Positions 21,862 through 35,570 of a DNA stretch of 64,000 nucleotides are shown here, piece after piece (the stretch's first letter is position 1; each line of letters starts with the position of its first letter). The DNA is from an uncultured Erysipelotrichaceae bacterium. GTDB lineage: Bacteria; Bacillota_I; Bacilli_A; RFN20; CAG-826. A program made the position numbers and the translations under genes. The DNA lies in assembly GCA_900314865.1 (NCBI GenBank), contig OMWW01000001.1, forward strand, positions 1,457 through 65,456. Direction: 5' to 3'. Under the pieces are notes generated by a model that was given only the letters and a program-made list of their open reading frames with translations, was not told the DNA's origin and did not search any database.

Positions 21862-21888
21862 AAAGAAAAAGTCCTGATTGTTAGGACT
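21862..21888 (-). terminator. Rho-independent terminator (AGTCCTaacaatcAGGACT followed by a T-run on the minus strand)
   Basis: Hairpin followed by a T-run immediately after the stop codon of the 21888-22094 gene. Confidence 0.6.
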
Positions 21889-22094
21889 TAATCATCGATT
21901 TTTCTTTTACGTTCTCTTGTACTGCTATCGTCGCAGCCACCACCAGAAATCGCGTTTAGTTGTTCATCGGTTAGTTCTACTCCCTCATCTTTGGCGAGTT
22001 GAATCAAATCCGATACATTATCAAATTTTTTAATCTTGGCGATTTGTTCTTTGGTTAAACCTTTTAATAATTCTTTTCTCATAACTAACCTCAC
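21888..22094 (-). CDS. Nif11-like double-glycine leader peptide precursor with short charged core (CDDSSTRERKRKIDD)
   Basis: Leader MRKELLKGLTKEQIAKIKKF...LAKDEGVELTDEQLNAISGGG matches the N11P/Nif11-type leader of the other copies and ends in GG. Has its own tandem box promoter and its own terminator. Confidence 0.65.
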   Translation of the reverse strand: MRLVMRKELLKGLTKEQIAKIKKFDNVSDLIQLAKDEGVELTDEQLNAISGGGCDDSSTRERKRKIDD

Positions 22095-22126: not shown

Positions 22127-22147
22127 GGTGCCACTAAAGTGCCACAC
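22127..22147 (-). promoter_or_regulatory. Tandem box promoter element (GTGGCAC-N4-GTGGCAC variant) upstream of 21888-22094
   Basis: Direct repeat seen in sequence. Variant of the TGTGRCAC-N3-TGTGACAA box found upstream of all the precursor genes. Confidence 0.5.
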
Positions 22148-22179: not shown

Positions 22180-23367
22180 TTAATTCTTTTTGCTAATTTC
22201 ATCTAACGCATCTTTTTGATGCTGATACACATCAATTATTCGTTCGATTAATTCAGGTGTATAGAAGTTGCTATTAGAAAGTATTTTTCTTATTTCTTCC
22301 TCAAAGCCATCTAATCTTGTTGGTTCATACCATGAATAGTCCCAACTTGATTCTAAAAAGCTAAATAAGAAATAAATAATAAAATATGATCCTTTATTAA
22401 GCTTTGTTATAAATTCTTTTCCAGTTTTACTCGTGCCAAAGGCTCCTGCTAAATCGTGTATTGGAGCGGGTTTAATCTTATTAGTTTTGGTGTTTCTAAT
22501 AACGCAGATATTATCAAAATGTAAATCGGAGATAAAACATAAAGATCTTAAACAAGATAATTTTACAAATAAATCATAGAGTTCAGGCATCCCAAATTCA
22601 GAAACCCTTTTAAAGAATTCTCTATTTTTTTCTTTATTATTATTCCTGCCTAAAAAAAGCTGATATAAGTCGTTAGGGAGAACTACGCTTAAAGGCACTA
22701 ATTCTTCATCTATATCTACTAAAGGTTTACAGATTGAACCGTATTTATCTCCGACTTTTACTAAATCATATTTTAAAACATCGTTTTCTTTTAAGATGCG
22801 GCAAGCAAGTCTAGAGGCTAATACTTCTCCTAAAGAGTCTTCATATTGATCTTTAACTATTCCTAACTTAATTAATTTAGGTCCGTTATCGTAAATCCAC
22901 CCTTTAACTGCCCAACCTTGAGTGACAATATCAGGGACATTTAAGTCGCATTTACTAAGTTCTTCGTATTTGCCGTTAAGGACCGCTCTAGCAAAAGAAT
23001 CATCCCATTTATTAGAGAAAAAATTAATATCTTCGTATTTTAAATCTTCTCCCTCTCTTTTAAACCAGTAATGATTACTTAAAGATAGTCCATGCCCTTT
23101 AAAGGCTAATTCAAAGGAATCTCTACAGCCGATATTTTTAATAATTAAATCGTAGTCCCAACGATTCTCACTAATTTTTCTAGAATTAAAAAACCTCAAT
23201 AGTCTCATGTTGTTACTATCATTATCTTTTTCAACTCCATAAGGGGCTAAATCAAAACGTTCTAATTCTTTAATAAGTCTAATTTTTGGTCTATTAACAT
23301 AATCCACAACAAAAGTTAAGACTTCATAGTCCTTATACATTAAAGTTAATGTTTCTTGATTATGCAT
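22180..23367 (-). CDS. HipA-like / protein-kinase-like fold protein (divergent)
   Basis: C-terminal catalytic-loop-like ISDLHFDNICVI followed by KPAPIHDL; compare HipA DDHAKNFS...LSPAYDL. Preceded directly by a tandem TGTGRCAC box at 23389-23410. Confidence 0.45.
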   Translation of the reverse strand: MHNQETLTLMYKDYEVLTFVVDYVNRPKIRLIKELERFDLAPYGVEKDNDSNNMRLLRFFNSRKISENRWDYDLIIKNIGCRDSFELAFKGHGLSLSNHYWFKREGEDLKYEDINFFSNKWDDSFARAVLNGKYEELSKCDLNVPDIVTQGWAVKGWIYDNGPKLIKLGIVKDQYEDSLGEVLASRLACRILKENDVLKYDLVKVGDKYGSICKPLVDIDEELVPLSVVLPNDLYQLFLGRNNNKEKNREFFKRVSEFGMPELYDLFVKLSCLRSLCFISDLHFDNICVIRNTKTNKIKPAPIHDLAGAFGTSKTGKEFITKLNKGSYFIIYFLFSFLESSWDYSWYEPTRLDGFEEEIRKILSNSNFYTPELIERIIDVYQHQKDALDEISKKN

Positions 23368-23388
23368 GTATTTATATTAATACATATG

Positions 23389-23410
23389 TTGTCACAGATG
23401 TGCCACAAAG
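23389..23410 (-). promoter_or_regulatory. Tandem box promoter element TTGTCACAgaTGTGCCACAA (plus strand) upstream of the HipA-like gene
   Basis: Same box as the precursor promoters; followed on the plus-strand side by a GGCC-aacaaag-GGCC hairpin. Confidence 0.5.
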
Positions 23411-23482: not shown

Positions 23483-23688
23483 GAAAAACCGAGCTTTACA
23501 CTCGGCTTACTTTGCATAAAGTGATTTGCTTTTCTTCCTTGATTTAATATTAGTTCATCAAAAACTATTTATTAACAATCCAGACAAAACCACAATCTTG
23601 ACAGGTGTTATTCCACCATTCAGCAATTGAATTTTCGTTATATTTAGTTTTAATTTTCTTAGAACCACATTTTGGGCAGGTAAAGTCT
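23483..23688. repeat. ~206-bp segment nearly identical to 28652-28858 (3' flank plus core of a decayed precursor copy)
   Basis: Direct comparison of the two stretches. Both contain the hairpin CCGAG-(6-8 nt loop)-CTCGG, the block TTACTTTGCATAAAGTGATTTGC and the out-of-frame core. Confidence 0.75.
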
Positions 23689-23790
23689 TTCTTTAGCGAC
23701 TTTTAATAATTCTTCTTGGTTTTTACACGCTTTAATTTTAGCGATTTGTTCTTCGCTTAATCCTTTAAGTAATTCATTTTTCATAATCAA
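23566..23790 (-). pseudogene. Decayed Nif11-like GG-leader precursor: leader intact (MKNELLKGLSEEQIAKIKACKNQEELLKVAKE), GG region deleted, zinc-ribbon core out of frame
   Basis: Own translation. In the +1 frame the 3' part reads TCPKCGSKKIKTKYNENSIAEWWNNTCQDCGFVWIVNK. Own box promoter at 23824-23846 and RBS AAAGGAG. Not in the ORF track (<60 aa). Confidence 0.6.
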
Positions 23791-23852
23791 AGTCTCCTTT
23801 GTTAACTTAACATTACCACACTACTTGTCACAGAAGTGCCACAAAGACAACA

Positions 23853-24400: not shown

Positions 24401-24419
24401 TTAACTAGTTTAGTTAACT

Positions 24420-24538
24420 CTATTCGTAATAAGTTGCTTTCCAAGTTTTGCCGCATGTTGGGCAAGTGAATTCGTAATATAATCCCTCGCCAAGTTCACG
24501 GTATAGATATTTGCCTTCAACAGAAGTGCCACAAAAGG
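24420..24538 (-). pseudogene. Leaderless remnant of a precursor core (..EGKYLYRELGEGLYYEFTCPTCGKTWKATYYE*) fused directly to a half box promoter
   Basis: Own translation of the minus strand; CPTCGKTW matches CPKCGKTW in the 28990 copy. Box fragment cagaagtgccacaa at 24521-24534 with no leader or ATG. Confidence 0.45.
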
Positions 24539-24543
24539 AAAAG

Positions 24544-25446
24544 CTATATTAATCCCGCTAAAGTGTTTAATATCATTCCAATAGAGACAAGAATAATTAT
24601 TAATAATAGTTGGAGTTTATTTTTGGATTTAAAGAATAACACTGTTGCTAAAGACACAATAATAAAGTCTAAACCAACGATCACATTAACAATCGCTGGA
24701 ATAGAATTTGAGTAAGAAAAGGCTGTGTATTTTAAGACAACCGTTAAAGCGTTAAATACCGCTCCGATAAAGATAAATAAAAGGACCTTCCATTTAATAG
24801 TGACCACTTCTTTAATTGATTTGGTAAATAAAGAAGAAAGTAACATCGCCCCAAATAGGAAAAATGTTTGATGAAATGAAACTACGTCAGAAGGTAAGTC
24901 ACTTAATTTTGTTTTCACAATTAATAAAACAAAGGCAAAAGCAATAACAGAGACTAGGGCAAACATCACCCAAAGAGTCTTAGCTTTAGGATTAATTTTT
25001 TTATTTAAAACAATATAAATTAGGGCCGCTAATAATAAAGCTAAACCAATATAATATAAGGCAACATTAATTGGCTTACCACCATTAGTGACTAAAGAAT
25101 ACGTAAAAATAACAAACAAAGTATTAGCAAAGAACAATGTTCCTGCACTACAAAATGGAGCAAAAGCTTCCAAGTGAGATCTTTTAATAGCGAGAAAATA
25201 AAATAGCCAATTTATGGCCATTAAAACTCCCACCAAAGAGAGCCAAAGCCACTGTTCAGTTGACAAACTATATAAAATAGGAACATGGCCACGAGCTAAA
25301 CAAATAAAAAAGCAGGCGATAACCATAAATAATGATTTAAGGACTGCATTAGTAATCGCTGAGGCTTTGTTAGCGCCAAGCTTATTAAATACGGTGTTGC
25401 CACTAGAGGCAAATAAAGCTAGGAAAGCAAATAAAATATATTCCAC
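24544..25446 (-). CDS. Polytopic membrane protein (~10 TM), possibly DMT/EamA-like transporter
   Basis: Hydrophobicity pattern only. Confidence 0.35.
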   Translation of the reverse strand: MEYILFAFLALFASSGNTVFNKLGANKASAITNAVLKSLFMVIACFFICLARGHVPILYSLSTEQWLWLSLVGVLMAINWLFYFLAIKRSHLEAFAPFCSAGTLFFANTLFVIFTYSLVTNGGKPINVALYYIGLALLLAALIYIVLNKKINPKAKTLWVMFALVSVIAFAFVLLIVKTKLSDLPSDVVSFHQTFFLFGAMLLSSLFTKSIKEVVTIKWKVLLFIFIGAVFNALTVVLKYTAFSYSNSIPAIVNVIVGLDFIIVSLATVLFFKSKNKLQLLLIIILVSIGMILNTLAGLI

Positions 25447-25493
25447 GATTATTAGAATACTCTTTTCTATAGAAAATAATAACTAGATAAATA

Positions 25494-26582
25494 TTATTGG
25501 TAGATGCTTGGTGGAATTACTTGTTCACGAACATCTTCCAAGAAGTCAATAACTTCAGTATAGACAGTTGGATCTTCTGGTAACCACATATCTCCTATGG
25601 GAGCACGAGCAGATTGGCCAGAACATTCAAAAGCCATGTTTGCGGTTTTAACACTTCCAGATTCTTCATCATATATCTCATTAAGATATTTAATTGTGTA
25701 TTTAAACTCTAAGAATTCACCAGTCTCTTTATCATATGTTAATTTTCCTTTAATATCGCCAGGAAAAATAACATCGATATATTCTTCTTTGATTTCATCA
25801 TTTTTATATACAAAGCTTAATTCAATTTTATCGTCTACTTCTTCTATTAATATATTGTGTCTAGTAATGAAGTTACTAATTTCTTGATCATTCATCTTCA
25901 CTAATTCTTTACAAGAAGAGAAATATAATCTATCTAAATATTCAATATTGCTTGGCGCGTCAAATAAATGAACGTTAGAAAAGATTTCTCTAAATGATCT
26001 AGTAGAAATAGAATCAAACAATAATTCTTTATCGATTTTAGCATTTAATTTTTGTCTAGATTCATAATCATAAGAATCACCATCAGTGACATCTAAAATG
26101 TTATAAACAAAAACATCTTCTTCATTGCTTTTTAAAGTCATTTGTTGATTTATACCTAAATTTTGATTAGTGGCGTAATCTCCACCAACCCTGGAAAAAG
26201 AAGACATCTTTGCGTTTTGAGTAATACGATATCCACCTTCGCCTTCTTTAATCGCATCAAAAACATTGACGTTACCATTTTCATCAACAACAGATTTATA
26301 TTCTTCACTAGATAAATCATAGTAAAAATCAAGGAATCCAAGACCAATATAATTAAAGTAACTTGATGATTTATCATCTTCATCTTTATAAACATCTAAA
26401 ACATCAAATTCTTGGGTGAACGTTGTTCCAATTGCCTTGGAGTGGAATTCAGATAAATCTTGTTTATTCAATAAAGTTTTTAGTTTATTAACTGCTTCAG
26501 TGTTAATAGTGTTAGGAACGGAATCATTACAAGACGCTAATCCGATAACAAGAGGCAATAATAAGAAAATATATTTTTTCAT
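25494..26582 (-). CDS. Lipoprotein of unknown function
   Basis: Signal peptide with lipobox GLASC; acidic extracellular domain. Confidence 0.5.
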   Translation of the reverse strand: MKKYIFLLLPLVIGLASCNDSVPNTINTEAVNKLKTLLNKQDLSEFHSKAIGTTFTQEFDVLDVYKDEDDKSSSYFNYIGLGFLDFYYDLSSEEYKSVVDENGNVNVFDAIKEGEGGYRITQNAKMSSFSRVGGDYATNQNLGINQQMTLKSNEEDVFVYNILDVTDGDSYDYESRQKLNAKIDKELLFDSISTRSFREIFSNVHLFDAPSNIEYLDRLYFSSCKELVKMNDQEISNFITRHNILIEEVDDKIELSFVYKNDEIKEEYIDVIFPGDIKGKLTYDKETGEFLEFKYTIKYLNEIYDEESGSVKTANMAFECSGQSARAPIGDMWLPEDPTVYTEVIDFLEDVREQVIPPSIYQ

Positions 26583-26592
26583 CTTTTACCTC

Positions 26593-28587
26593 CTAAACCA
26601 TGATTGTAACATCGCGTTTAAAACGATCTGAATTGAAATAGGCAGTATCTTTTTTATGGTCTAGTTCAATCTTTTTCTTACCACGATTATCTAAAGATAT
26701 AAATTGATAATACGCCCAATACTCACATCTATGACGTGGTTTTTTGGAATAAGATTTCATGGAGATGTTGTATTTTCTATTAATGGGCATAAATAGCTCC
26801 ATTTTTTCTTCAGTAGCATAGCTATAATAGCCAACCGCAAATCCTTGTTCGCAGTCTTCAATATCACTCTTACCTAAAATATGTCCTTCAACATTTACTA
26901 CACGTTTACCTTTTTTGTTATCTAATCTTAAGCCTAAATCATTAAAGCCAAAGAAATGCATTCTACCAAAATCAGCGTTATTTCTAAGTGGCACTACACT
27001 AATTTGATCACTATGAGAAGAATTATAGTTATCAATATAGTAACTATCCTGAGCTTGCATATGGGCTAAAGCCGTCTCGGCATAATGATTTTGAAAAATA
27101 TCACCCATATGAATAAAGATAGAAATTAATTCATTAGGTCTTTCCCAATAAGCACTACAAAGTGGTCCAAGTAATGCATTAACACAATTTTTAATTGCAC
27201 TAGCGTGTGGTCCAGCGAATTGTTGAATACATTTATCAAAATCTTTAAAATTACCAATAATTGAAGAAGACAAAATTGCTGCTCCTAGCATTTTAACGAT
27301 TAACAAAGGCGTAGAAGGCATGGAGCTTATTTTTTCATCTTTCATAACAAGCATCAATTCTTCTAATGGGCTTTGATATTTTTTAACAAAATCATTTCTT
27401 GAACCTAGATTAGAAGTTAGCTCTTCTAAAAACAGAGTTGTAGCAATATTAGAGTCATAATTTGCTTTTGTATTATCTTTAAGGTCACCAAAATCACCCT
27501 CAAACACATCAATAATCGCCGGAACAATTGTAATCATTTTGAGAAAGTCTTCTATTTTTAGACCATACATCCCAAAATTATCTGCAGTATATTTCACTTC
27601 ATCAGTTTGATTTACGATGTCAAATAAAGCTTTAAACACACGTCTATTACTTTCATAGTTAGAAGGGTCAAAGAATTTGGTGGTAATATATTTATCAACA
27701 CCAAAACGAGTAAACCCATATTCCGACATCCCAACTTTTGTTACGACATCATTAGGGTTAATAATATTAAAAATATTGCCATATAAAGCGTCTTTAGGGA
27801 GCTTAATGGTTTTAGAATTTACGTTTGCTCCCTGAGGGGCTTCAAAAGTATAAGTATAAATATCATCTTTATATAGTTGAACATTATCAAATACCTTTTC
27901 TCCCTTATCTAGATAAGAATCAAGTAACCCTGCGGTAATATTTATCACCGCTCCTCCTCGAGAAAACCCGGTTAACCATAATTTAATATGTCCACTGACT
28001 TGATTAGTTTCAATATAGTTTTTAATAAAGTTAATAGCTTTTATAGAAGCATTGTACCAACCTTCATGCATATAATCAGATTTGCTACCATCTCCTAAAT
28101 GCATATTATTGGCCCATTCACTGTAATATCCTCCAGATCTAGGAGCAACAGCAATTACTGTATAATCCGAAAATTCTTTTTTAGCTGCTGCTAAACCTAA
28201 AGAATCAAATCTCGCTGTTTGCTTATAGTCATCATTAGTAACAAATGAATTAAAACCTATAGTCTCTAATACTTCTTCAATATATTTTGGTTGAGAAAGA
28301 TACCACTGCTCAGTAAATGGAGGATAATCTGTATAAGTTGAAATTGATAGGCACAAAGAAGTAGTTGCTAAATGAGGATCATATTCATAGGCAGAATGTT
28401 CAAAATATGACTGGGAAAAATAAATATCACTTGTAAAAATTGATTTGCCTATTGGGCGTTCATTAGAAACATAAGAAAAAGTATATTTCTCAATCGGATA
28501 TGAGACATTCGCTCTTCGAGGTTCTACTCCACTAACTACACTAGCGGTTAACCCGGTTATCAGAAACAATAATCCAAATGCTTTCAT
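26593..28587 (-). CDS. Secreted alpha/beta-hydrolase, lipase/esterase-like (GxSxG)
   Basis: Signal peptide; nucleophile elbow LWLTGFSRGGAVINI (GFSRG); 664 aa. Preceded by a tandem TGTCACA box at 28628-28649. Confidence 0.5.
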   Translation of the reverse strand: MKAFGLLFLITGLTASVVSGVEPRRANVSYPIEKYTFSYVSNERPIGKSIFTSDIYFSQSYFEHSAYEYDPHLATTSLCLSISTYTDYPPFTEQWYLSQPKYIEEVLETIGFNSFVTNDDYKQTARFDSLGLAAAKKEFSDYTVIAVAPRSGGYYSEWANNMHLGDGSKSDYMHEGWYNASIKAINFIKNYIETNQVSGHIKLWLTGFSRGGAVINITAGLLDSYLDKGEKVFDNVQLYKDDIYTYTFEAPQGANVNSKTIKLPKDALYGNIFNIINPNDVVTKVGMSEYGFTRFGVDKYITTKFFDPSNYESNRRVFKALFDIVNQTDEVKYTADNFGMYGLKIEDFLKMITIVPAIIDVFEGDFGDLKDNTKANYDSNIATTLFLEELTSNLGSRNDFVKKYQSPLEELMLVMKDEKISSMPSTPLLIVKMLGAAILSSSIIGNFKDFDKCIQQFAGPHASAIKNCVNALLGPLCSAYWERPNELISIFIHMGDIFQNHYAETALAHMQAQDSYYIDNYNSSHSDQISVVPLRNNADFGRMHFFGFNDLGLRLDNKKGKRVVNVEGHILGKSDIEDCEQGFAVGYYSYATEEKMELFMPINRKYNISMKSYSKKPRHRCEYWAYYQFISLDNRGKKKIELDHKKDTAYFNSDRFKRDVTIMV

Positions 28588-28627
28588 TTCAAATATTCGC
28601 CTTAATAATTGTATTTTACATTATTAG

Positions 28628-28649
28628 GTGTCACAAATGTGTCACAAAA
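28628..28649 (-). promoter_or_regulatory. Tandem box promoter element GTGTCACAAATGTGTCACAA upstream of the lipase-like gene
   Basis: Same box as the precursor promoters; immediately preceded (on the minus strand) by the hairpin GCCGAGTGAAATATCTCGG plus a T-run. Confidence 0.5.
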
Positions 28650-28651
28650 AA

Positions 28652-28858
28652 GAAAAACCGAGATATTTCACTCGGCTTACTTTGCATAAAGTGATTTGCT
28701 TTTCTTCCTTGATTTAATATTAGTTCATCAAAAACTATTTATTAACAATCCAGACAAAGCCACAATCTTGACAGGTGTTATTCCACCATTCAGCAATTGA
28801 ATTTTCGTTATATTTAGTTTTAATTTTCTTAGAACCACATTTTGGGCAGGTAAAGTCT
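28652..28858. repeat. ~207-bp segment nearly identical to 23483-23688
   Basis: Direct comparison. Confidence 0.75.
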
Positions 28859-28973
28859 CGGTTAATTCAATGCCTTCTTGTTTAGCTAAAGCCAAAAGTT
28901 CCTCTTGGTTTTTGCAAGCTTTTACTTTTGTAATTTGTTCTTCAGTTAAACCTTTTAATAAATCTTTTTTCAT
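28728..28973 (-). pseudogene. Decayed Nif11-like GG-leader precursor: leader MKKDLLKGLTEEQITKVKACKNQEELLALAKQEGIELTE intact, GG region deleted, zinc-ribbon core in another frame
   Basis: ORF-track protein lacks the EQL..ISGGG segment. Its 3' half is identical at DNA level to the 23566-23790 copy, where the alternative frame encodes CPKCG...CQDCG. Confidence 0.55.
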
Positions 28974-28989
28974 ACGGAAAACTTATATT

Positions 28990-29274
28990 CTAGTTATCCC
29001 TCCAAGTTTTTCCACATTTTGGACAGGTAACTTCATTACCGTCTTTATCAAATTTACCGTTATATCCACAGAATGGACAATCAAATGGATTGAGTTTATC
29101 GCCAATATCGGAAACAACACTGCAGGCACCCCCGCCACTAATAACAGCTAATTGTTCGCTTGTTAATTCAACGCCTTCTTGTTTGGCTAAAGCTAAAAGT
29201 TCATCATGACTTTTACATGCTTTAACTCTCGCGATTTGTTCTTCAGATAATCCTTTTAAAAGTTCTTTTTTCAT
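28990..29274 (-). CDS. Nif11-like double-glycine leader peptide precursor with zinc-ribbon-type core (ACSVVSDIGDKLNPFDCPFCG...TCPKCGKTWRDN)
   Basis: Leader MKKELLKGLSEEQIARVKACKSHDELLALAKQEGVELTSEQLAVISGGG, then a core with CPxCG/CxxCG knuckles; RBS AAAAGGAG; box promoter 29314-29335. Confidence 0.75.
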   Translation of the reverse strand: MKKELLKGLSEEQIARVKACKSHDELLALAKQEGVELTSEQLAVISGGGACSVVSDIGDKLNPFDCPFCGYNGKFDKDGNEVTCPKCGKTWRDN

Positions 29275-29313
29275 GATTCGATCTCCTTTTCTAGATATAT
29301 CTTATCATATAGT

Positions 29314-29335
29314 TTGTCACAAAAGTGTCACAAAA
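29314..29335 (-). promoter_or_regulatory. Tandem box promoter: TTGTGACAcTTTTGTGACAAA (minus-strand sense) with -10 TATGAT
   Basis: Seen in sequence. On the minus strand it is preceded by the hairpin GGCCTCCTTGGAGGTC plus TTTTTTT (terminator of the upstream gene). Confidence 0.55.
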
Positions 29336-29418
29336 AAAGACCTCCAAGGAGGCCTAATCTATACTGAAAAGTTTTTTGTCAAATTTGTGATAAGTAACTT
29401 TGGATAACAGTGTCTATA

Positions 29419-29694
29419 TTATAAAGACCACTCATGGCCGCAGCTATTACATTTATAAGTACTACATCCACTTATTTGATAATCTGGCAATTTTCTAAAG
29501 TCTTTTGAACCGCAATTTGGGCATTTCATGGATGAAAAACATCCTCCACCACTAACAGCTTCAATTTGTTCACTAGTTAATTCAACGCCTTCTTCTTTTG
29601 CAAGTTTTAATAATTCTTCTTGGCTTTTACATGATTTTGCTTTGGCAATTTGTTCTTCGTTTAATCCCTTCAATAATTCTTTTTTCATATTCAA
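29419..29694 (-). CDS. Nif11-like double-glycine leader peptide precursor with 6-Cys core (CFSSMKCPNCGSKDFRKLPDYQISGCSTYKCNSCGHEWSL)
   Basis: Leader ...EGVELTSEQIEAVSGGG; own box promoter at 29729-29750. Confidence 0.75.
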   Translation of the reverse strand: MNMKKELLKGLNEEQIAKAKSCKSQEELLKLAKEEGVELTSEQIEAVSGGGCFSSMKCPNCGSKDFRKLPDYQISGCSTYKCNSCGHEWSL

Positions 29695-29728
29695 AGTTCT
29701 CCTCTGTTAATAGCATATTAGCACAGAG

Positions 29729-29750
29729 TTTGTCACAAATGTGTCACAAG
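29729..29750 (-). promoter_or_regulatory. Tandem box promoter TTGTGACAcaTTTGTGACAAA with extended -10 TGcTAATAT
   Basis: Seen in sequence. Confidence 0.55.
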
Positions 29751-29836
29751 AAAAGACCTCGCAAGAGGCCTAATCTAAGCTGGATAAGTCATTTTGTCGT
29801 GTTTTTACACTCGGCTTTTTTTATATGGCAATTAGT

Positions 29837-30124
29837 TTATTTGCTGGTATAACCTGTTTCGAACTCTTTACCACAATCATTACACTTGTATTTTTTCAAA
29901 ACTTTACCAGATTCTCTTAATTTAACATTAGTGCTTCTACATGATGGGCATGGCGGACAATTATCTGTGTTAGAACACGCTCCACCATTAACAGCTTCTA
30001 GTTGTTCACTAGTGAGTTCCAAATCTTCTTTTTTAGCTAAAGCCAAAATTTCATCAGTATTATTACACGCTCTTACTTTAGCGATTTGTTCTTCACTTAA
30101 TCCTTTTAATAAATCTTTTTTCAT
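29837..30124 (-). CDS. Nif11-like double-glycine leader peptide precursor with 6-Cys core (ACSNTDNCPPCPSCRS...KCNDCGKEFETGYTSK)
   Basis: Probable start MKKDLLKGL at 30124 (RBS AAAGGAGAAC); track ORF extends further upstream. Leader ends EQLEAVNGG; box promoter 30166-30187. Confidence 0.7.
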   Translation of the reverse strand: MKKDLLKGLSEEQIAKVRACNNTDEILALAKKEDLELTSEQLEAVNGGACSNTDNCPPCPSCRSTNVKLRESGKVLKKYKCNDCGKEFETGYTSK

Positions 30125-30165
30125 ATTCAAAGTTCTCCTTTGTTGGTTATATGTTAGCAAACTCT

Positions 30166-30187
30166 TTGTCACAGAAGTGCCACAAGA
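30166..30187 (-). promoter_or_regulatory. Tandem box promoter TTGTGGCACttcTGTGACAAA
   Basis: Seen in sequence. Confidence 0.55.
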
Positions 30188-30211
30188 AAAGACCGAGTTT
30201 TTACACCCGTC

Positions 30212-31048
30212 TTATAAACGTTTGATTGTTTTAATGATTTTTCTTTTTCTTCCTTGATATAATCCAGTGCCTTCATACATCAATTCAAATCCACATTTCT
30301 CCAACACTCTTCTGCTGGCTTTATTAGCCGCTAAAGCGATGCCGATTATTTGTTTGAGATTCGTGTTGTTTTTGATGTAATCCAAAAATAGATTACTAGC
30401 TTCAGTAGCGTAACCATTGCCGGTATAAATCTCAGCGATGTGATAACCAATTTCCCATCCTTCTTCTATTTTTACCAGTTGAACATAGCCGAGATTAGCG
30501 TTATCTTTCTTTCTTAAAACCGCGTAAACAAATGGGCCGCCCTCACTATCATAACAATTGATAATTTGGTTAACCACCTCACTAGCTTCTTCTAGTGAAT
30601 TAAATACTTCATCGGGAACAAATTTACGATTATTATCATCTTGCGAGTTTTTATAAACATCGTAGTACATAGATTGATTCATTCTGGCAATTTGCAATCT
30701 ATCGTTTTCAATAATGATTTGTTTATTACAAAGAATACATTTGTTAACGATATTTTTCCAATCTTGATAACGAGATAAGACTCTTAAAATATAAACACAT
30801 TTTGCAAGTTCGTTGACTTGATAAATAGCAACGTGATTTACGCAGATTAAATAGTGTGCATTCGTATAATCAAAAAAAGAATTAGCTATTTTAAGCCCAC
30901 CATAAGGGAAAGTTTCTAATTGTTCGAATCTATCAAATATTTTAAGGATGTATTGTTTAGCAATTTCTAAATTATCTTTGGCAATAAAAGGTTTGATGCT
31001 TTCAAGATCAGAAAAAGCACTATTGGTGATAATGATTTTATACGTCAT
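30212..31048 (-). CDS. ParE/RelE-family toxin domain fused in frame to a GNAT N-acetyltransferase domain
   Basis: Residues 1-~100 resemble ParE/RelE toxins (YKIIITNSAFSDL...YQVNELAKCVYILRVLSRYQDW). Residues ~110-278 are GNAT (acetyl-CoA motif IGIALAANKASRRVLEKCGFEL). ATGA start/stop overlap with the upstream Phd antitoxin gene. Confidence 0.7.
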   Translation of the reverse strand: MTYKIIITNSAFSDLESIKPFIAKDNLEIAKQYILKIFDRFEQLETFPYGGLKIANSFFDYTNAHYLICVNHVAIYQVNELAKCVYILRVLSRYQDWKNIVNKCILCNKQIIIENDRLQIARMNQSMYYDVYKNSQDDNNRKFVPDEVFNSLEEASEVVNQIINCYDSEGGPFVYAVLRKKDNANLGYVQLVKIEEGWEIGYHIAEIYTGNGYATEASNLFLDYIKNNTNLKQIIGIALAANKASRRVLEKCGFELMYEGTGLYQGRKRKIIKTIKRL

Positions 31049-31293
31049 AGTAATTTCTTTTTAGCGTCTTCCAAGGACATAACTCTTCCAGAATTAACGT
31101 CCGCAATTCCTTGATTGATTTCTTGCATTAATTTGATTGTTTTATAAAGTTCATCTAAAACATTTGAATCTATGATTGCGGTATCTTCTCTACCATTAAC
31201 TGTTATATAAACTGGTTGGCCAGTAGTTTTACATAGTTCACTTATTTCTTTATATCTATTTCTTAAATCTGCACTAGGTCTAATAATTGCCAT
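31045..31293 (-). CDS. Phd/YefM-family type II antitoxin
   Basis: MAIIRPSADLRNRYKEISELCKTTGQPVYITVNGREDTAIIDSNVLDELYKTIKL is the classic YefM/Phd N-terminal fold sequence; overlaps the toxin gene by 4 nt. Confidence 0.85.
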   Translation of the reverse strand: MAIIRPSADLRNRYKEISELCKTTGQPVYITVNGREDTAIIDSNVLDELYKTIKLMQEINQGIADVNSGRVMSLEDAKKKLL

Positions 31294-31478
31294 AAAAATA
31301 CCTCGTTATATCATAATTATATCATATGCAGATGTTTTTAAAGATTTAAAAAGCCGCTTTTTTACGGCTCTTGTATATAAGTCAATTTGATCTATAATTC
31401 TCCATCCACAATTATGTCATGTTTAAGCCTGCTCGCGAATAAGAAAAAACTGAGCGTTGCTCAGTTATACTCGTTTGT

Positions 31479-31769
31479 TTAATCGTAATTCTCAATTTTG
31501 TAGCCACAGCTTTGGCAGATATAATAGGTGCCTTTGTCTTTTAAGTTGTTGCTACCACATCTTGGACAGTCATATGGATTAATGTAATCTCCGATATCTG
31601 AAATAACGCTACAAGCGCCACCACCACTAGCAACAGCTAATTGTTCTTCAGTAAGTTCAACACCTTCTTTTTTAGCGAGTTTTAAAAGTTCTTCATGGCT
31701 TTTGCATGCTTTAACTTTAGCGATTTGTTCTTTAGTTAAACCTTTTAATAATTCTTTATTCATATTCAA
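31479..31769 (-). CDS. Nif11-like double-glycine leader peptide precursor with zinc-ribbon core (ACSVISDIGDYINPYDCPRCG...ICQSCGYKIENYD)
   Basis: Leader ...EGVELTEEQLAVASGGG; RBS AAAGGAGAAC; box promoter 31804-31825. Confidence 0.75.
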   Translation of the reverse strand: MNMNKELLKGLTKEQIAKVKACKSHEELLKLAKKEGVELTEEQLAVASGGGACSVISDIGDYINPYDCPRCGSNNLKDKGTYYICQSCGYKIENYD

Positions 31770-31803
31770 AGTTCTCCTTTATTAGTTAGATGCTATCACA
31801 ACA

Positions 31804-31825
31804 TTTGTCACAGATGTGCCACAAA
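31804..31825 (-). promoter_or_regulatory. Tandem box promoter TTGTGGCACatcTGTGACAAA
   Basis: Seen in sequence. Confidence 0.55.
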
Positions 31826-31990
31826 AAAACCTTGTAAGAGGCCTAATCTATGCTGGATGACGCTAGATCAAGCGTGGTTTCTATAGTTGTTTAACCAATC
31901 CCGTCCTGAGTTGTCCAAAACCCTTCGTCCTTTGAAGGCAAAAGAAAAACCGAGATATTTCACTCGGTCACGATAGAATGATTAATGATT

Positions 31991-32305
31991 TTACACTGGT
32001 GAACTATTGTCCGTCCATGTGTAGCCACACTTCTCGCAAGTGTACTTCTTGCCATCTTTTACAGGTCTGTTCGCACCACATTTTGGGCAATCAAACGGAT
32101 TGATTTTATCGCCAATATCAGAAACAACACTGCAGGCACCCCCGCCGCTAATAGTGGTTAGTTGCTCGTCGGTAAGTTCAATCCCTTCTTCTTTCGCTAA
32201 TGCTAATAATTCATCACTATTCTTACATGCTTTTGCTTTAGCGACTTGTTCTTCGGTTAAACCTTTTAGTAATTCTTTTTTCATAGAGTTTTTTACTCTC
32301 TCCAT
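31991..32305 (-). CDS. Nif11-like double-glycine leader peptide precursor with zinc-ribbon core (ACSVVSDIGDKINPFDCPKCG...TCEKCGYTWTDNSSPV)
   Basis: Likely start MKKELLKGL at 32284 (track ORF starts 7 codons upstream and overlaps the preceding gene). Leader ends LTTISGGG. No own box promoter, so probably co-transcribed with 32293-32580. Confidence 0.7.
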   Translation of the reverse strand: MERVKNSMKKELLKGLTEEQVAKAKACKNSDELLALAKEEGIELTDEQLTTISGGGACSVVSDIGDKINPFDCPKCGANRPVKDGKKYTCEKCGYTWTDNSSPV

Positions 32306-32580
32306 TTAAATCCGCAGCTTTGGCATTGGAATAGATTACCTTTGCCTTTCACTGCTTCAACTTTGTTGCTGCCACATTCTGGGCAATCAAACGGATTTAA
32401 AAAATCTCCAACATCTGAAACAACGCTACAAGCACCGCCACCACTAATAGCGGATAGTTGCTCATCAGTAAGTTCGATTCCTTCTTCTTTAGCTAAAGCT
32501 AAAAGCTCTTCATGGTTTTTGCAAGCTTTTACTTTTGCAATTTGTTCTTCAGTTAAACCTTTTAATAATTCTTTTTTCAT
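32293..32580 (-). CDS. Nif11-like double-glycine leader peptide precursor with zinc-ribbon core (ACSVVSDVGDFLNPFDCPECG...QCQSCGFKWRE)
   Basis: Probable start MKKELLKGL at 32580 (RBS AAAGGGG); the 47-codon N-terminal extension in the track ORF overlaps the box promoter at 32618-32640 and is unlikely to be coding. Confidence 0.7.
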   Translation of the reverse strand: MKKELLKGLTEEQIAKVKACKNHEELLALAKEEGIELTDEQLSAISGGGACSVVSDVGDFLNPFDCPECGSNKVEAVKGKGNLFQCQSCGFKWRE

Positions 32581-32617
32581 ATCAAAGCCCCTTTGTTGAA
32601 CATATCTTACCATATAG

Positions 32618-32640
32618 TTTGTCACAAATGTGCCACAAAG
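32618..32640 (-). promoter_or_regulatory. Tandem box promoter TTGTGGCACatTTGTGACAAA
   Basis: Seen in sequence; followed on the plus-strand side by GGCC-aacaaag-GGCC TAATCTA, as at 23410-23440. Confidence 0.55.
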
Positions 32641-32749
32641 AAAAAGGCCAACAAAGAGGCCTAATCTATTTAGATGAGTCATATTGTCCAATATTGAATA
32701 ATTCTCACAAAAACGGGACACAGGACTTATTTATTAAAAGAATAAAAAG

Positions 32750-33334
32750 TTATTGTTTAACTTCGATTCTAGTAATTCTCACATTATAAGTTAAAGCAAA
32801 AGTACTAGACATAATAGTAGGAATAAAAATTGATAAATACATCGCTAAATATGTATACCATCCAGAAGACATCATATGACCTAAAAAATCAAGTTTAGCG
32901 GTAATAGAGGAATAAATAGAAAATGCTAACGCCACTACTACCATTAATATAGATACAAAGCTATTAATTTTTTTGTCTTTTTGTTTTACTAAGAAAATAG
33001 ATACTAAGGCAAATAAAACAGTAAGTAGAGCAATTTGAACCGCATTTCTTTGAGGCAATAAGATATTTACCAATATCGCTCCTAAAAAAGGAATAATTGC
33101 TAATAAATAAGCAAATTCTTTTTTCTTATAACCAATAATTCCATACGTCATAATTGCTAAAACTGATAAAGTGATAAAGATATAAGAAGATATCATCCAT
33201 CCCCCAAGATCATTAATACTAATAAATACCAATAGATAAATAGAAGCCGCTAATAAGATGACCGATAAAATCATCTGCACAAATAACATTATTGCTTTAT
33301 CTTTTTTAATACCTAGTGTTTTAAGTGTATCCAT
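32750..33334 (-). CDS. Small polytopic membrane protein (5-6 TM) immediately upstream of the precursor array
   Basis: Hydrophobicity only; position makes an immunity- or export-accessory role conceivable. Confidence 0.35.
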   Translation of the reverse strand: MDTLKTLGIKKDKAIMLFVQMILSVILLAASIYLLVFISINDLGGWMISSYIFITLSVLAIMTYGIIGYKKKEFAYLLAIIPFLGAILVNILLPQRNAVQIALLTVLFALVSIFLVKQKDKKINSFVSILMVVVALAFSIYSSITAKLDFLGHMMSSGWYTYLAMYLSIFIPTIMSSTFALTYNVRITRIEVKQ

Positions 33335-33423
33335 AAATCCCCCTACATAATAATTTCTAGCGTTTTAATCTTAATATATTTTTTCACCGCCACAATTGAC
33401 TATGTTAATAATATTATAGACAA

Positions 33424-35570
33424 CTATAAACCAGCAGGCTCTTCGATGTGAATTGTGTTATTTTGAGTATCTAAAGTAGCTTCCAATCTAAGATTCAATG
33501 TTGTTACAAACATAATAGGATAAGGCACATTAAACGAAATTCTTGTTTTTTCTTCATTCAGATAAATGCATGTTGTTCTAAATATAAGATCGTTATATTC
33601 AATTTTCATCTCGTTGTTTTCGCTTGAATAGAAGTAAATTGGATTATCCTCCGTGTATAGGAATGAATTTTCGTCAGGAGTGAAAACAGTGTCAGCGTAA
33701 GGATGATCATTTTCTATTTCGGAATGAGAAACAAGATTAAAATGTTTGCTATCGCTTCCATTTTCAAATAGGAGTCTACTGCACCATAATTGACCAAAAA
33801 GAATAATCTCGTGGTCATTATTTTCATCAAACTTATATGTACCAAAACGATTGAATGTATCGTTCGGATCATCAAAATAACAAATTGCGTGATATTTATT
33901 ATCTTTTGCTGCAATAGATTTAATATGGAATGTGTTTATTGCTCCAAACTTATCAAATCCACAGACTGTAACATTTTCCTTATTTGCTCTTCTGGCACCG
34001 AATATATTGTAGCGTCCGTTTCATCTCCGATGTCAGTCAAAACAACGGAAACAAATTGCTTAATTTTTCCATATGCTTCAATGTTTACATAGTATGGGTA
34101 AGTACCTTCAATCTTTGTGTCCACATAAGAAAGATCAACATCTGAAGCAGTTATACCTACATCTTTAGATGTGCCATCTTGATATTTAAAGGTAACATAG
34201 GCGTCACCACTATTGAAGTAACTTGCAAGATCAAATCCTGGTTCAATTTCTTCTTTGAATCCTTTATATTCAACAGACTTAATGTAATTAGATTCATTAA
34301 AAACTAGATATGTTCCAAATAGACGATATCTTGAATCTAATTTGAAAGATAATTCATGTTTCCCGACCGTAGTAAAAGGATTTGAATCTAACTGTAAGTC
34401 ACAGCTTTGTAATTCTTCAAACGTCATCGTTCTATAAAAGGAAGCGCGTCCAAATTGTCTTTGAGGATGACTGAGACTAAATTGGTCTATTGTTCCAAAA
34501 GCAATAATCTCAACAAATGACCAAATTAACACTGTATTGTCTTTTGGTAGAGTATTATCACTTTGTTGTCTAACGTTATCAACTGAGACCACATTATGAT
34601 GCGTGTCTAGTCTATAGTAACCAAATAATGTAAATTGATTGCTAATAGTTACAGTGTTTTTGTATGTAAAGGACAAGCACATAGATTGTTCGCCCTCGAT
34701 TGTAGTGCTTTGGTTATTATCAACAAATTCAATTGATAAATCAGTGACAAATCGATCATCCAATCTCACATTATCAAAGTGTGTTTGCCCAGCCACTTTT
34801 TTATCTAAATCAAACGACATAACCATATTGTGCAAATCTAAGGCGTTTTCAATAGATTCATTTCGCTTTCCGTAAATATAGTTGCCCGTCGATAAGTGAG
34901 CGGCTAAAGAAGCATCAGGATTATCAACAATATAGAGTTCGCAAGGATCTTCACCATAGAACGATTGATTGACAACGATATTTGACGCTGAAGGATTGCT
35001 ACCAGGTGCATCTGCAGCTACACAGTCATAATAAATTTCACAGCAAGAAAATGTAGCAATGTCGTTGTTATTAGTTGTTACTTGGAAGAAAGATGGCTTT
35101 AGTCCATCAAAATAAACATCACCGTTTGCGTCAGGTATTTCTTCACGTGCCGAATCAGTTGTCATAGACCAAGCATATTTAACTTTAAGATTATTGCCGT
35201 TTTCAAAATGAATTCTGGTTAAGCCATTAATTGGATCTCTAACAACACCCGATTTATCCATAAGGTTGCCAAACCAGCCATCTAAGCCTAATTTTACTTT
35301 TTCTTCATTTTTTAAATTTGTAATACCATTTTGAAGTAGTCTAACTGTGTTATTTCGATATGTTTTTACATCGACATAATAATATCCACCTACATCATGA
35401 GGTTCTTTGGTGAGTTGCTCATTTTCATAAGATAAATCAATTCTCATTGGGGTGTCGTAGGCATTATTTAGGACAAAATTAAGATTTTGGCTAAGCACAG
35501 AAGAAAAAGTGATTGTTCCAAGAGCTAAAACAAACGCTGATAGAAATACCACTAGTTTTTTCTTTTTCAT
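33424..35570 (-). pseudogene. Large secreted protein gene apparently disrupted near 33914-33936 (intact N-terminal 544-aa ORF 33936-35570, then the same domain continues in two other frames down to 33424)
   Basis: Own translation: sequence past the stop at 33936 still reads as a coherent domain in other frames (..NKYHAICYFDDPNDTFNRFGTYKFDENNDHEIILF.. then ..IENDHPYADTVFTPDENSFLYTEDNPIYFYSSENNEMKIEYNDLIFRTT..). Confidence 0.45.

What the first reader, a model, noticed from the sequence alone, without database searches (positions are those of the whole stretch)
28728..32721. Multi-copy cassette array of Nif11-type double-glycine leader peptides carrying zinc-ribbon (CPxCG...CxxCG) cores
At least six intact paralogues sit within about 4 kb: 28990, 29419, 29837, 31479, 31991 and 32293, plus 21888 with a short charged core. 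All share a leader ~MKKELLKGLTEEQIAKVKACKSHEELLALAKEEGVELTxEQLxxISGGG. This resembles the Nif11/N11P leader class (prochlorosin-type) and ends in a Gly-Gly cleavage motif. The cores are not lanthipeptide-like. They are 40-50 aa mini-domains with two rubredoxin/zinc-ribbon knuckles (C-P-x-C-G ... C-x-x-C-G) plus one or two extra Cys. Four copies share ACSVVSDIGDxxNPFDCPxCG immediately after the GG site. Each gene has its own RBS and most have their own promoter and terminator. Core sequences diverge much faster than the leaders, as expected for a diversifying secreted-peptide family. No C39-peptidase ABC exporter (PCAT), LanM/LanB, rSAM or other maturase lies in the 64 kb. The family could therefore be exported GG-cleaved zinc-ribbon peptides, such as a bacteriocin-like or signalling class. 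The processing machinery would then be encoded elsewhere. I am not aware of a described product class that matches this leader/core combination.
Basis: partly seen in the sequence, partly recalled or inferred. Interest (0 to 1): 0.85.

Follow-up and report, generated by a model that had tools for sequence, protein, structure and literature searches.

The report
Leader-tagged zinc-ribbon mini-protein gene array
A rumen bacterium carries a co-regulated array of small genes, each joining a conserved cleavable export leader to a different zinc-ribbon mini-protein; close relatives encode the matching cleaving exporter and a radical-SAM enzyme beside such genes, so this looks like an undescribed family of secreted, possibly modified mini-proteins.

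Summary
Six intact minus-strand genes (28990-32580), one short-core gene (21888-22082) and two decayed copies share a 47-aa Nif11-like leader ending in Gly-Gly, followed by diverse CPxCG...CxxCG cores.

The window holds no exporter or maturase. In at least 13 related rumen loci, the syntenic partner of window 21888-23367 continues as short-core precursor, radical-SAM/SPASM enzyme, small HlyD-like protein, C39-peptidase ABC exporter and second ABC, with zinc-ribbon precursor arrays just upstream.

Three features were not in the finding:
- Every one of the 330 unique precursors that carry the GG has a Cys within five residues after the GG.
- A promoter motif, GTGRCA-N5-GTGRCA, occurs 9 times in the window (0.38 expected). 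It precedes the precursors, a HipA-fold kinase gene and a lipase-like gene. In relatives it also precedes the rSAM/exporter operon.
- Orthologous cores are under purifying selection (dN/dS 0.13), so they are not hypervariable.

Best reading: leader-guided, GG-cleaved, exported zinc-ribbon mini-proteins, probably rSAM-modified at the conserved Cys. This species lacks the machinery at the syntenic site, and I could not test whether it lies elsewhere. Literature searches found no description. I class it as a new variant of the Nif11/NHLP-leader plus PCAT kind.

The parts
32293..32580 (-). Precursor 1 (95 aa): 47-aa Nif11-like GG leader followed by GACSVVSDVGDFLNPFDCPECG...CQSCG zinc-ribbon core
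   Evidence: Pfam Nif11 23.7 bits. AF2 core pLDDT about 81. At least 1485 homologues.
31991..32284 (-). Precursor 2 (97 aa), ACSVVSD-type core. It starts 8 nt after precursor 1 and has no promoter motif of its own, so the two are probably co-transcribed.
31479..31763 (-). Precursor 3 (94 aa), ACSVISD-type core
   Evidence: Pfam Nif11 25.4 bits, above the gathering score of 23.8.
29837..30124 (-). Precursor 4 (95 aa), core ACSNTDNCPPCPSC...CNDCG
29419..29688 (-). Precursor 5 (89 aa), core GCFSSMKCPNCG...CNSCG
28990..29274 (-). Precursor 6 (94 aa), ACSVVSD-type core
28728..28973 (-). Decayed precursor. A 46-bp deletion removes DEQLEAVNGGICTSTP and shifts the frame. The gene is an intact 94-aa copy in strains L079-L081.
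23566..23784 (-). Decayed precursor of the same core type. A 65-bp deletion removes the leader end and the GG-Cys junction. The gene is intact in other strains.
21888..22082 (-). Short-core precursor (64 aa): same leader, then GCDDSSTRERKRKIDD. In relatives this gene directly precedes the rSAM-PCAT operon.
22180..23367 (-). HipA-fold kinase (395 aa), the conserved upstream neighbour of the short-core precursor, preceded by the same promoter motif
   Evidence: AF2 pLDDT 91. Foldseek HipA E 1.6e-9. HipA_C in 7 of 11 members. D-x-H-x-x-N and D305 invariant.
26593..28587 (-). Lipase_3-like protein (664 aa) with a hydrophobic N-terminus that looks like a signal peptide (by eye, not tested). It is preceded by the shared promoter motif and sits syntenically in L169.
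32620..32636 (-). Promoter motif GTGGCACATTTGTGACA upstream of precursor 1
31806..31822 (-). Promoter motif upstream of precursor 3
30167..30183 (-). Promoter motif upstream of precursor 4
29731..29747 (-). Promoter motif upstream of precursor 5
29315..29331 (-). Promoter motif upstream of precursor 6
28629..28645 (-). Promoter motif upstream of the lipase-like gene
23826..23842 (-). Promoter motif upstream of the decayed copy at 23784
23390..23406 (-). Promoter motif upstream of the HipA-like kinase gene
22129..22145 (-). Promoter motif (GTGGCACTTTAGTGGCA) upstream of the short-core precursor
31948..31969 (-). Terminator-like hairpin after precursor 2
31448..31466 (-). Terminator-like hairpin after precursor 3
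29754..29771 (-). Terminator-like hairpin after precursor 4
29338..29355 (-). Terminator-like hairpin after precursor 5
28655..28678 (-). Terminator-like hairpin after the decayed copy at 28728
30212..31293 (-). Phd antitoxin plus ParE-GNAT fusion toxin module embedded in the array. It is a recurrent neighbour, not part of the peptide system.

Best explanation
The region is an array of precursor genes for leader-guided, secreted mini-proteins. Each product has three parts:
- a 47-aa helical Nif11-like leader ending in the classic double-glycine site (ELTDEQLxxISGG);
- a short flexible junction that always contains a Cys at +1 to +5;
- a roughly 35-aa four-Cys zinc ribbon of one of several conserved types.

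Proposed mechanism:
1. The genes are switched on together through a shared promoter/operator (GTGRCA-N5-GTGRCA with an extended -10). The same motif controls a HipA-fold kinase, a lipase-like protein that appears to be secreted and, in relatives, the processing operon.
2. The leader is recognised by a radical-SAM/SPASM enzyme, which most likely modifies the junction Cys. It is also recognised by an NHLM-type ABC exporter pair whose C39 peptidase domain cuts after GG during export.
3. The zinc ribbon folds outside the cell. The rumen is reducing, so the thiolates could stay zinc-competent.
4. The short-core peptide encoded next to the rSAM gene is probably the enzyme's dedicated small substrate, possibly an inducing pheromone by analogy with class II bacteriocin loci.

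Shown: gene structure, leader and core homology, the invariant Cys, the shared promoter motif, and operon linkage in relatives.
Inferred: cleavage, export, the rSAM target, zinc binding, and the biological role (competition or signalling).
For: Leader:
- PF07862 Nif11 matches at E 1e-5 to 1e-2 and in 43 of 62 family members at E<=1e-3.
- The last 13 leader residues fit the NHLP/N11P logo: acidic at positions 1, 4 and 6; Leu at 2 and 7; Ser/Thr at 3; Val/Leu/Ile at 10; GG at 12-13 (PMC2887384).

Core:
- Zn_Ribbon_TF matches 41 of 62 members, best E 7e-8.
- The PDB profile hit is the RpoM/TFS zinc ribbon, E 4.7e-5.
- AF2 gives a three-strand core at pLDDT about 81, joined to a three-helix leader by a disordered junction at residues 47-60.

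Machinery in relatives:
- L017, L040, L042, L086, L090, L092, L093, L102, L109, L113, L153 and L169 show the order u397, short-core precursor, rSAM/SPASM, small HlyD-like protein, PCAT, ABC2. Zinc-ribbon precursors lie immediately upstream.
- The PCAT has PF03412 at E 4e-31, TIGR03796 at 828.5 bits, and the Q...ECG catalytic motif.
- L017 is 89% nt-identical to the window across u395 and continues directly into the rSAM.
- In L108 and in the human-gut loci, a domain-type precursor directly precedes the rSAM.

Shared features across the family:
- 330 of 330 unique GG-bearing precursors have a Cys within five residues of the GG, including single-Cys cores.
- The promoter motif occurs 9 times in the window against 0.38 expected. 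Of 192 hits in the loci, 156 lie 40-110 nt upstream of a precursor start. It also precedes u397 and the rSAM-PCAT operon.
- Purifying selection acts on leader and core (dN/dS 0.11 and 0.13).
- A PCAT system has been shown to export diverse small proteins, limited only by length (PMC10231218).
Against: - The window has no exporter or rSAM. The syntenic site in all strains of this species runs from the short-core precursor straight into a MalK/GH32 sugar locus.
- Two of the nine copies are inactivated in this strain.
- The leaders score below the TIGR03798 cut-off, and the PCAT and ABC2 of relatives score slightly below their equivalog cut-offs.
- Only 3 of the 77 precursor-centred genome loci show the exporter within 10 kb.
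- The Foldseek matches of the small core are not significant (best E 0.044).
- Cleavage, export, modification and metal binding have not been observed.
Confidence: 0.55

Rival explanations
1. Orphan array. The family is what the best explanation says, but this species has lost the rSAM/exporter module. In that case the window genes are unprocessed relics on their way to decay, or they depend on neighbours' machinery.
For: - The breakpoint falls exactly after the short-core precursor (window about 21931), with no rSAM or PCAT remnant in the window.
- The arrangement is the same in all 8 displayed contigs of the species.
- Two copies carry frameshifting deletions.
Against: - Six copies, the kinase and all nine promoter motifs are intact.
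- dN/dS against orthologues is about 0.1, including against the closest relatives.
- The decayed copies are intact in sister strains.
- In relatives most precursor arrays lie far from the exporter (74 of 77 loci), so absence from 64 kb is expected.
Confidence: 0.2
2. Thioether RiPPs rather than zinc proteins. The CxxC cysteines would be donors for rSAM-made sactionine or ranthionine bridges, and the mature products would be cross-linked peptides that bind no metal.
For: - A SPASM-type rSAM lies in the conserved operon. Its best NCBIfam similarities include the peptide maturases DynA, WgkB, PapB, StsB and AlbA.
- The cores are Cys-rich.
Against: - The CPxCG...CxxCG knuckle spacing and the profile hits are those of zinc ribbons.
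- AF2 folds the core confidently as a beta-ribbon.
- The homologous rSAM in human-gut loci serves precursors whose cores lack the four Cys and keep only the junction Cys.
- The short cores have a single Cys.
Confidence: 0.12
3. Cytoplasmic two-domain proteins. A Nif11-like helical domain would stay attached to a nucleic-acid- or protein-binding zinc ribbon, and the GGG would be only a linker.
For: - Zinc ribbons are normally intracellular.
- JGI annotates some members as an 'RNA-binding Zn-ribbon protein'.
- No exporter lies in the window.
Against: - Family-wide similarity ends exactly at a GG that fits the bacteriocin/NHLP cleavage logo.
- One leader is attached to unrelated cores: zinc ribbons, 12-17-aa tails, and 80-aa beta domains.
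- The genes are linked in operons to a C39-peptidase exporter, and the promoter is shared with that operon.
Confidence: 0.08

Closest known systems
Nif11-derived precursor peptides (N11P, TIGR03798/PF07862) with the NHLM three-gene exporter (TIGR03794/03796/03797), Haft et al. 2010
   Same: - Helical Nif11-like leader.
- Family similarity ends at a GG with the same logo.
- Large paralogous families, often far from the machinery.
- A paired ABC exporter, one subunit of which carries a C39 peptidase.
   Different: - The leader is shorter and matches only the C-terminal half of the Nif11 model. It scores below the TIGR03798 cut-off.
- The host is a rumen Bacilli/Erysipelotrichaceae lineage, not cyanobacteria or nitrogen fixers.
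- The core is a folded zinc ribbon under purifying selection, not a short low-complexity hypervariable peptide.
- The maturase is an rSAM/SPASM, not a TOMM or LanM enzyme.
- The HlyD component is reduced to about 130 aa.
Prochlorosin-type systems (many ProcA precursors, one enzyme)
   Same: Many precursor genes share one conserved Nif11-type leader, carry different cores, are scattered in the genome, and are served by a single processing locus.
   Different: - There is no LanM.
- The cores are conserved between species (dN/dS 0.13) and are structured.
- The only universally conserved core residue is one Cys next to the cleavage site.
Class II double-glycine bacteriocins and class II microcins exported by PCATs (for example the microcin V system)
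   Same: - A GG leader is cleaved by the C39 domain during ABC export.
- The cargo can be a small protein (PMC10231218).
- Such loci often include a GG-leader pheromone peptide and a dedicated regulator.
   Different: - The leader is much longer, at 47 aa and three helices.
- No immunity gene was identified.
- An rSAM enzyme and a HipA-fold kinase belong to the conserved set.
- A zinc-ribbon cargo has not been described.
rSAM/SPASM-modified RiPPs (sactipeptides, ranthipeptides/SCIFF)
   Same: A SPASM-domain rSAM is encoded next to Cys-containing GG-leader precursors and a PCAT, in anaerobic Firmicutes.
   Different: - The rSAM reaches no curated family cut-off. Its best hit is 100 bits, against cut-offs of 340 or more.
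- Only one Cys is conserved, with no fixed acceptor spacing.
- The cargo can be an 80-aa domain.
HipA/HipT/CtkA Ser/Thr kinases
   Same: The predicted fold and the catalytic D-x-H-x-x-N and DxG-like motifs of window 22180-23367 match.
   Different: - No HipB-like partner is seen.
- The gene is co-regulated and syntenic with a peptide-processing operon.
- The family is narrow, with 219 homologues.
- The substrate is unknown.

Membership tests
N11P / Nif11 leader family (TIGR03798, PF07862) | Leader scores above the curated HMM cut-off | tested here: not met
   TIGR03798 gives 13-23 bits against a cut-off of 32.3 for all 8 window copies. PF07862 gives 16.6-25.4 bits against 23.8, so only 1 of 8 passes. 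43 of 62 family members match at E<=1e-3. The leader is therefore a related, divergent form rather than a curated member.
N11P / Nif11 leader family (TIGR03798, PF07862) | [quoted passage not shown] | tested here: met
   330 of 331 unique precursors carry the GG at that position. ELTDEQLSAISGG fits the logo described in PMC2887384.
N11P / Nif11 leader family (TIGR03798, PF07862) | Paralogous expansion within a genome | tested here: met
   There are 9 copies in the window and up to 13 per 20-kb locus in relatives.
N11P / Nif11 leader family (TIGR03798, PF07862) | Association with the TIGR03794/03796/03797 export cluster | tested here: inconclusive
   The cluster is present next to family members in at least 13 related loci. 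Scores are just under the equivalog cut-offs: 828.5 against 853.3, and 652 against 709.4. The HlyD component is only a 130-aa fragment. The cluster is absent from the window.
N11P / Nif11 leader family (TIGR03798, PF07862) | Short, hypervariable, low-complexity core modified by TOMM or LanM enzymes | tested here: not met
   The cores are 35-55-aa zinc ribbons under purifying selection (dN/dS 0.13). No YcaO or LanM is seen in the window or in the annotated rSAM-PCAT operons of relatives.
PCAT-exported double-glycine peptides | A C39-peptidase ABC transporter with catalytic Gln/Cys, encoded with the precursors | tested here: inconclusive
   This is met in relatives: PF03412 at E 4e-31 and the MQLEALECG motif. 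It is not met in the window. The rest of this genome could not be searched.
PCAT-exported double-glycine peptides | Cleavage after GG and appearance of the core outside the cell | not testable with these tools
   This needs an in vitro protease assay or peptidomics.
rSAM/SPASM-modified RiPPs (sacti-/ranthipeptide-like) | An rSAM with a SPASM domain adjacent to the precursor | tested here: inconclusive
   PF04055 plus PF13186 lie directly after the short-core precursor in relatives. The window has no rSAM homologue.
rSAM/SPASM-modified RiPPs (sacti-/ranthipeptide-like) | A Cys-derived thioether or other rSAM modification in the product | not testable with these tools
   The only support is indirect: a Cys at +1 to +5 in 330 of 330 precursors.
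Zinc-ribbon fold | Two CxxC knuckles on beta-hairpins | tested here: met
   292 of 330 cores have at least two CxxC. C66, P67, C69, C86, C89 and G90 are invariant in A1. Zn_Ribbon_TF matches 41 of 62 members. The PDB profile hit has E 4.7e-5. The AF2 core has three strands at pLDDT about 81. The Foldseek top hits are zinc ribbons, but with E>=0.04.
Zinc-ribbon fold | Binds one Zn(II) through four Cys | not testable with these tools
   This needs metal analysis of purified peptide.
HipA-family kinase (window 22180-23367) | HipA fold and catalytic-loop residues | tested here: met
   AF2 gives pLDDT 91 and pTM 0.90. The top 24 Foldseek hits are HipA, CtkA or HipT, best E 1.6e-9. D281, H283, N286 and D305 are invariant. 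HipA_C is weak, matching 7 of 11 members at best E 3e-4, below the cut-off.

The most novel reading that the evidence does not exclude
This may be an undescribed secretion and maturation route for folded mini-proteins in anaerobic gut Firmicutes. In it, a Nif11-like GG leader delivers diverse small domains to a dedicated radical-SAM enzyme and a PCAT pair. The domains are zinc ribbons in rumen Bacilli and roughly 80-aa beta domains in human-gut bacteria. The enzyme would install a modification on the single invariant Cys next to the cleavage site. The whole set would form one regulon with a HipA-fold kinase and a secreted lipase, and the short-core peptide would act as the inducing signal.
Probability: 0.3. 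Interest if true: 0.8.

Novelty: new variant of a known kind. Interest (0 to 1): 0.62.

Why it matters
If the reading is right, PCAT-type exporters in gut anaerobes secrete whole families of metal-binding mini-proteins, not just short bacteriocins.

- **Scale.** The family has at least 1485 clusters at 90% identity. It appears in 35 rumen MAGs representing 35 species, and related systems occur in human-gut metagenomes.
- **Testable chemistry.** The invariant Cys beside the cleavage site gives a concrete target for an uncharacterised rSAM/SPASM family.
- **Entry points for experiments.** The shared promoter motif, the HipA-fold kinase and the short-core peptide offer handles on how rumen bacteria regulate interference or signalling.
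- **Annotation.** These genes are currently labelled hypothetical, or as an 'RNA-binding Zn-ribbon' protein.

Tried and rejected
- **Exporter or maturase remnants in the window.** tblastn with the relatives' rSAM, HlyD-like protein, PCAT and ABC2 found only the generic MalK ATPase. Pfam annotation of the rest of the window and its flanks found none.
- **Neighbour clustering around 77 genome loci.** No universally linked gene emerged, only island-type genes: AbiEii, ParE-GNAT, RhuM, KilA-N and hybrid histidine kinases. The exporter was found only after a C39-motif regex.
- **Sigma-54 promoter.** The motif resembles TGGCAC-N5-TTGC but has TGAC at -12, and the G of GG varies to A. I rejected this by inspection in favour of a direct-repeat operator plus an extended -10.
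- **Lipobox.** I rejected a lipobox reading of GG-x-C, also by inspection, because the leader is hydrophilic and helical, not a signal peptide.
- **Diversifying selection on the cores.** Rejected: dN/dS is 0.13.
- **Fold search of the precursor model.** Only non-significant zinc-ribbon hits.
- **PDB profile search for the rSAM.** Nothing at E<=1e-10.
- **Rfam on 21-34 kb.** No hits.
- **Literature.** Eight searches found no description of this leader/core combination.
- **Linking an exporter to this species.** I could not do this.

Full report
**1. Observation**

A leader HMM built from them finds nine leader-bearing ORFs in the window.

- Six are intact array genes: 32293-32580, 31991-32284, 31479-31763, 29837-30124, 29419-29688 and 28990-29274.
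- One is the short-core gene, 21888-22082.
- Two are decayed copies, at 28728-28973 and 23659-23784.

Several ORFs in the mechanical list are over-extended from upstream GTG or TTG codons. The aligned ATG sits 7-10 nt after an AAAGGAGA ribosome-binding site and is the consistent start.

Among the seven intact window paralogues, leaders are 71% identical on average and cores 37%. Terminator-like hairpins are strongly enriched, at 16 against 1.8 +/- 1.4 expected, and follow five of the seven array genes.

**2. What the parts are**

*Leader.* Pfam Nif11 (PF07862) matches residues 15-40 of every copy at E 1e-5 to 1e-2. Only one copy exceeds the gathering score. TIGR03798 is always below its cut-off. 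Across 62 family members, 43 match Nif11 at E<=1e-3. The last 13 leader residues, ELTDEQLSAISGG, match the cleavage-site logo that Haft et al. describe for NHLP/N11P and class II bacteriocin leaders (PMC2887384). That places cleavage after the first GG.

*Core.* C66, P67, C69, C86, C89 and G90 are invariant. Generic zinc-ribbon models hit below threshold. Zn_Ribbon_TF matches 41 of 62 members, with a best E of 7e-8. A family profile finds the RpoM/TFS zinc ribbon in the PDB at E 4.7e-5.

*Structure.* AlphaFold2 gives three parts:

- a three-helix leader, pLDDT 55-66;
- a disordered junction at residues 47-60;
- a three-strand core, pLDDT about 81.

The Foldseek top hits are zinc ribbons (eL43, TFS4, ZifS), but none is significant.

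**3. Family and hosts**

The protein database holds at least 1485 homologous clusters. Almost all come from metagenomes and are unnamed or labelled 'hypothetical'.

A scan of one genome per species returned 77 loci from 35 assemblies. All are rumen MAGs labelled Erysipelotrichaceae, Bacilli or Bacillales, plus two Lachnospiraceae and one Pseudobutyrivibrio. These loci carry up to 13 precursors each.

Of 330 unique GG-bearing precursors:

- 292 have two CxxC knuckles;
- 30 have short hydrophilic cores;
- all 330 have a Cys within five residues after the GG, and 314 have it within three. An S/T-rich stretch usually follows.

This GG-x(0-2)-C junction is the only core feature conserved across every core type.

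**4. The machinery, found in relatives**

Clustering all neighbours gave only island-type genes. A search for the C39 motif then found about 722-aa proteins with MQLEALECGAASL in L017, L040 and L042.

Annotation showed a conserved operon, in this order:

- a 397-aa unknown protein, homologous to window 22180-23367;
- a short-core precursor;
- an rSAM/SPASM enzyme (PF04055 plus PF13186);
- a 128-137-aa protein resembling the HlyD N-terminus;
- a PCAT (PF03412 at E 4e-31; TIGR03796 at 828.5 bits against a cut-off of 853.3);
- a second ABC subunit (TIGR03797 at 652 bits against 709.4).

A metagenome scan with the rSAM recovered 80 more loci. Every sufficiently long rumen locus repeats this order, often with 8-9 zinc-ribbon precursors directly upstream, as in L102 and L113. 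A 921-kb scaffold (L169) shows the same order, followed by STAS and SpoIIE/anti-sigma-kinase genes and a hybrid histidine kinase.

Human-gut relatives of the rSAM (46% identity) sit beside PCAT/ABC2 and arrays of about 135-aa precursors. These precursors have a longer Nif11-like leader...DNVAGG-C, a linker, and an 80-aa beta-rich domain or occasionally a zinc ribbon. There, and in L108, a domain-type precursor directly precedes the rSAM. The enzyme is therefore not reserved for the short peptides.

**5. The situation in this window**

The window keeps the kinase-like gene and the short-core precursor. L017, L086 and L113 align to it at 85-89% nucleotide identity only as far as about 21931. After that point they continue into the rSAM, while the window continues into a MalK/GH32 fructan locus.

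All eight displayed contigs of the same species share this arrangement. No remnant of the rSAM, PCAT or ABC2 is present. Precomputed Pfam for the remaining genes and the flanks shows no PCAT, rSAM, LanM or YcaO.

Whether the module lies elsewhere in this genome could not be tested. In relatives, 74 of 77 precursor loci also lack it within 10 kb.

**6. Co-regulation**

Aligning the upstream regions revealed a conserved block about 55 nt before the ATG. It consists of a terminator, then TTTGTGGCACATTTGTGACAAA, then TGnTAAnAT.

The pattern GTGRCA-N5-GTGRCA occurs nine times in the window, all on the minus strand, against 0.38 expected. The nine sites precede:

- five intact array precursors;
- the short-core precursor;
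- the decayed copy at 23784;
- the kinase-like gene;
- the Lipase_3-like gene at 26593-28587.

In the fetched loci, 156 of 192 hits lie 40-110 nt upstream of a precursor start. Others precede u397, the short-core/rSAM/PCAT operon and the lipase gene. This is an independent link between the window's array and the processing operon. The motif is absent from the human-gut loci.

**7. The kinase-like gene**

Sequence models barely see it. HipA_C matches 7 of 11 members, with a best E of 3e-4. The AlphaFold2 model is confident, at pLDDT 91 and pTM 0.90. Its top 24 PDB matches are HipA, CtkA or HipT kinases, with a best E of 1.6e-9. D-x-H-x-x-N and a downstream Asp are invariant in 41 homologues. 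The family is narrow, with 219 homologues. Its substrate is unknown.

**8. Selection**

Window copies were compared with 2-19 orthologues each. This gave dN/dS 0.11 for leaders and 0.13 for cores, at pS of about 0.45-0.53.

Cores differ between paralogue types, but each type is conserved across species. That argues for specific folded functions and against prochlorosin-like hypervariability. It also argues against long-standing loss of function in this lineage.

**9. Interpretation**

The best-supported reading is leader-guided, GG-cleaved, PCAT-exported zinc-ribbon mini-proteins. They are probably modified by the rSAM at the junction Cys and expressed as one regulon. Export of diverse small proteins by a PCAT system has experimental precedent (PMC10231218).

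Three rivals remain, and each is scored in the rivals section:

- an orphan array in this species;
- thioether RiPPs without zinc;
- uncleaved cytoplasmic proteins.

The pheromone role for the short-core peptide and the antagonistic or signalling role for the ribbons are analogies to class II bacteriocin loci. They are not results.

**10. Novelty**

Eight literature searches found no description of a Nif11/GG leader on a zinc-ribbon core, or of this rSAM/kinase/PCAT set. The curated libraries give no family name.

The architecture is that of the known N11P/NHLM kind. It differs in four ways:

- a new cargo class;
- a universally conserved junction Cys;
- an unassigned SPASM enzyme;
- a HipA-fold kinase.

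I therefore class it as a new variant of a known kind.

Noticed in passing
window 28728-28973 and 23566-23784: The two decayed precursors are the same core type (ICTSTPDFTCPKCG...IVNK) and are 99% identical over 193 nt. Each has an internal deletion, of 46 bp and 65 bp, that removes the GG-Cys junction, and both deletions end at the same 3' base. Both genes are intact in sister strains L079-L081. This could reflect repeated inactivation of one peptide type, gene conversion, or an assembly artefact.
   Followed up: partly
window 30212-31293: A Phd antitoxin plus a ParE-GNAT fusion toxin module sits inside the array. The same 278-aa fusion lies a median 233 bp from precursors in 8 loci. AbiEii toxins lie a median 64 bp from precursors in 9 loci. 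Toxin-antitoxin modules therefore recurrently interleave with these arrays.
   Followed up: partly
window 26593-28587 and 25494-26582: A 664-aa Lipase_3-like protein with a hydrophobic, signal-peptide-like N-terminus (by eye) and an adjacent 362-aa protein with no Pfam hit are syntenic with the system in L169. The lipase gene carries the shared promoter motif. Its role in the regulon is unknown.
   Followed up: partly
L169:17659-21188 and L042:9058-10899: Directly downstream of ABC2, relatives encode a STAS protein and a SpoIIE-phosphatase/HATPase_c_2 fusion. This looks like a partner-switching module. L169 adds a hybrid histidine kinase. These are candidate regulators of the conserved promoter, and none is present in the window.
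   Followed up: no
L129-L158 (human-gut metagenome loci): These loci carry arrays of about 135-aa precursors. Each has a 60-aa Nif11-like leader, ...DNVAGG-C, a Gly/Pro/Ser/acidic-rich linker, and an 80-aa beta-rich domain (KFxVGD...). They lie next to a 46%-identical rSAM and PCAT/ABC2. This sister system has protein-domain cargo.
   Followed up: partly
window 57787-60605: A TldD/PmbA protease pair is encoded here. The family is known from my own background knowledge for microcin B17 leader processing. Here it is probably housekeeping and shows no link to the array.
   Followed up: no
window 22000-34000: The G+C content is 0.31-0.33, against 0.34-0.40 in the flanks. RhuM and HTH genes are present, and strain L078 lacks the lipase-EamA-MsrA block. 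The array lies in a variable, island-like segment next to a GH32 fructan-utilisation locus (5.7-21.4 kb).
   Followed up: partly
window 32750-33334: A 194-aa multi-pass membrane protein with no family hit lies immediately upstream of the array. It has no homologue in the other loci, so it is not a conserved immunity candidate.
   Followed up: partly
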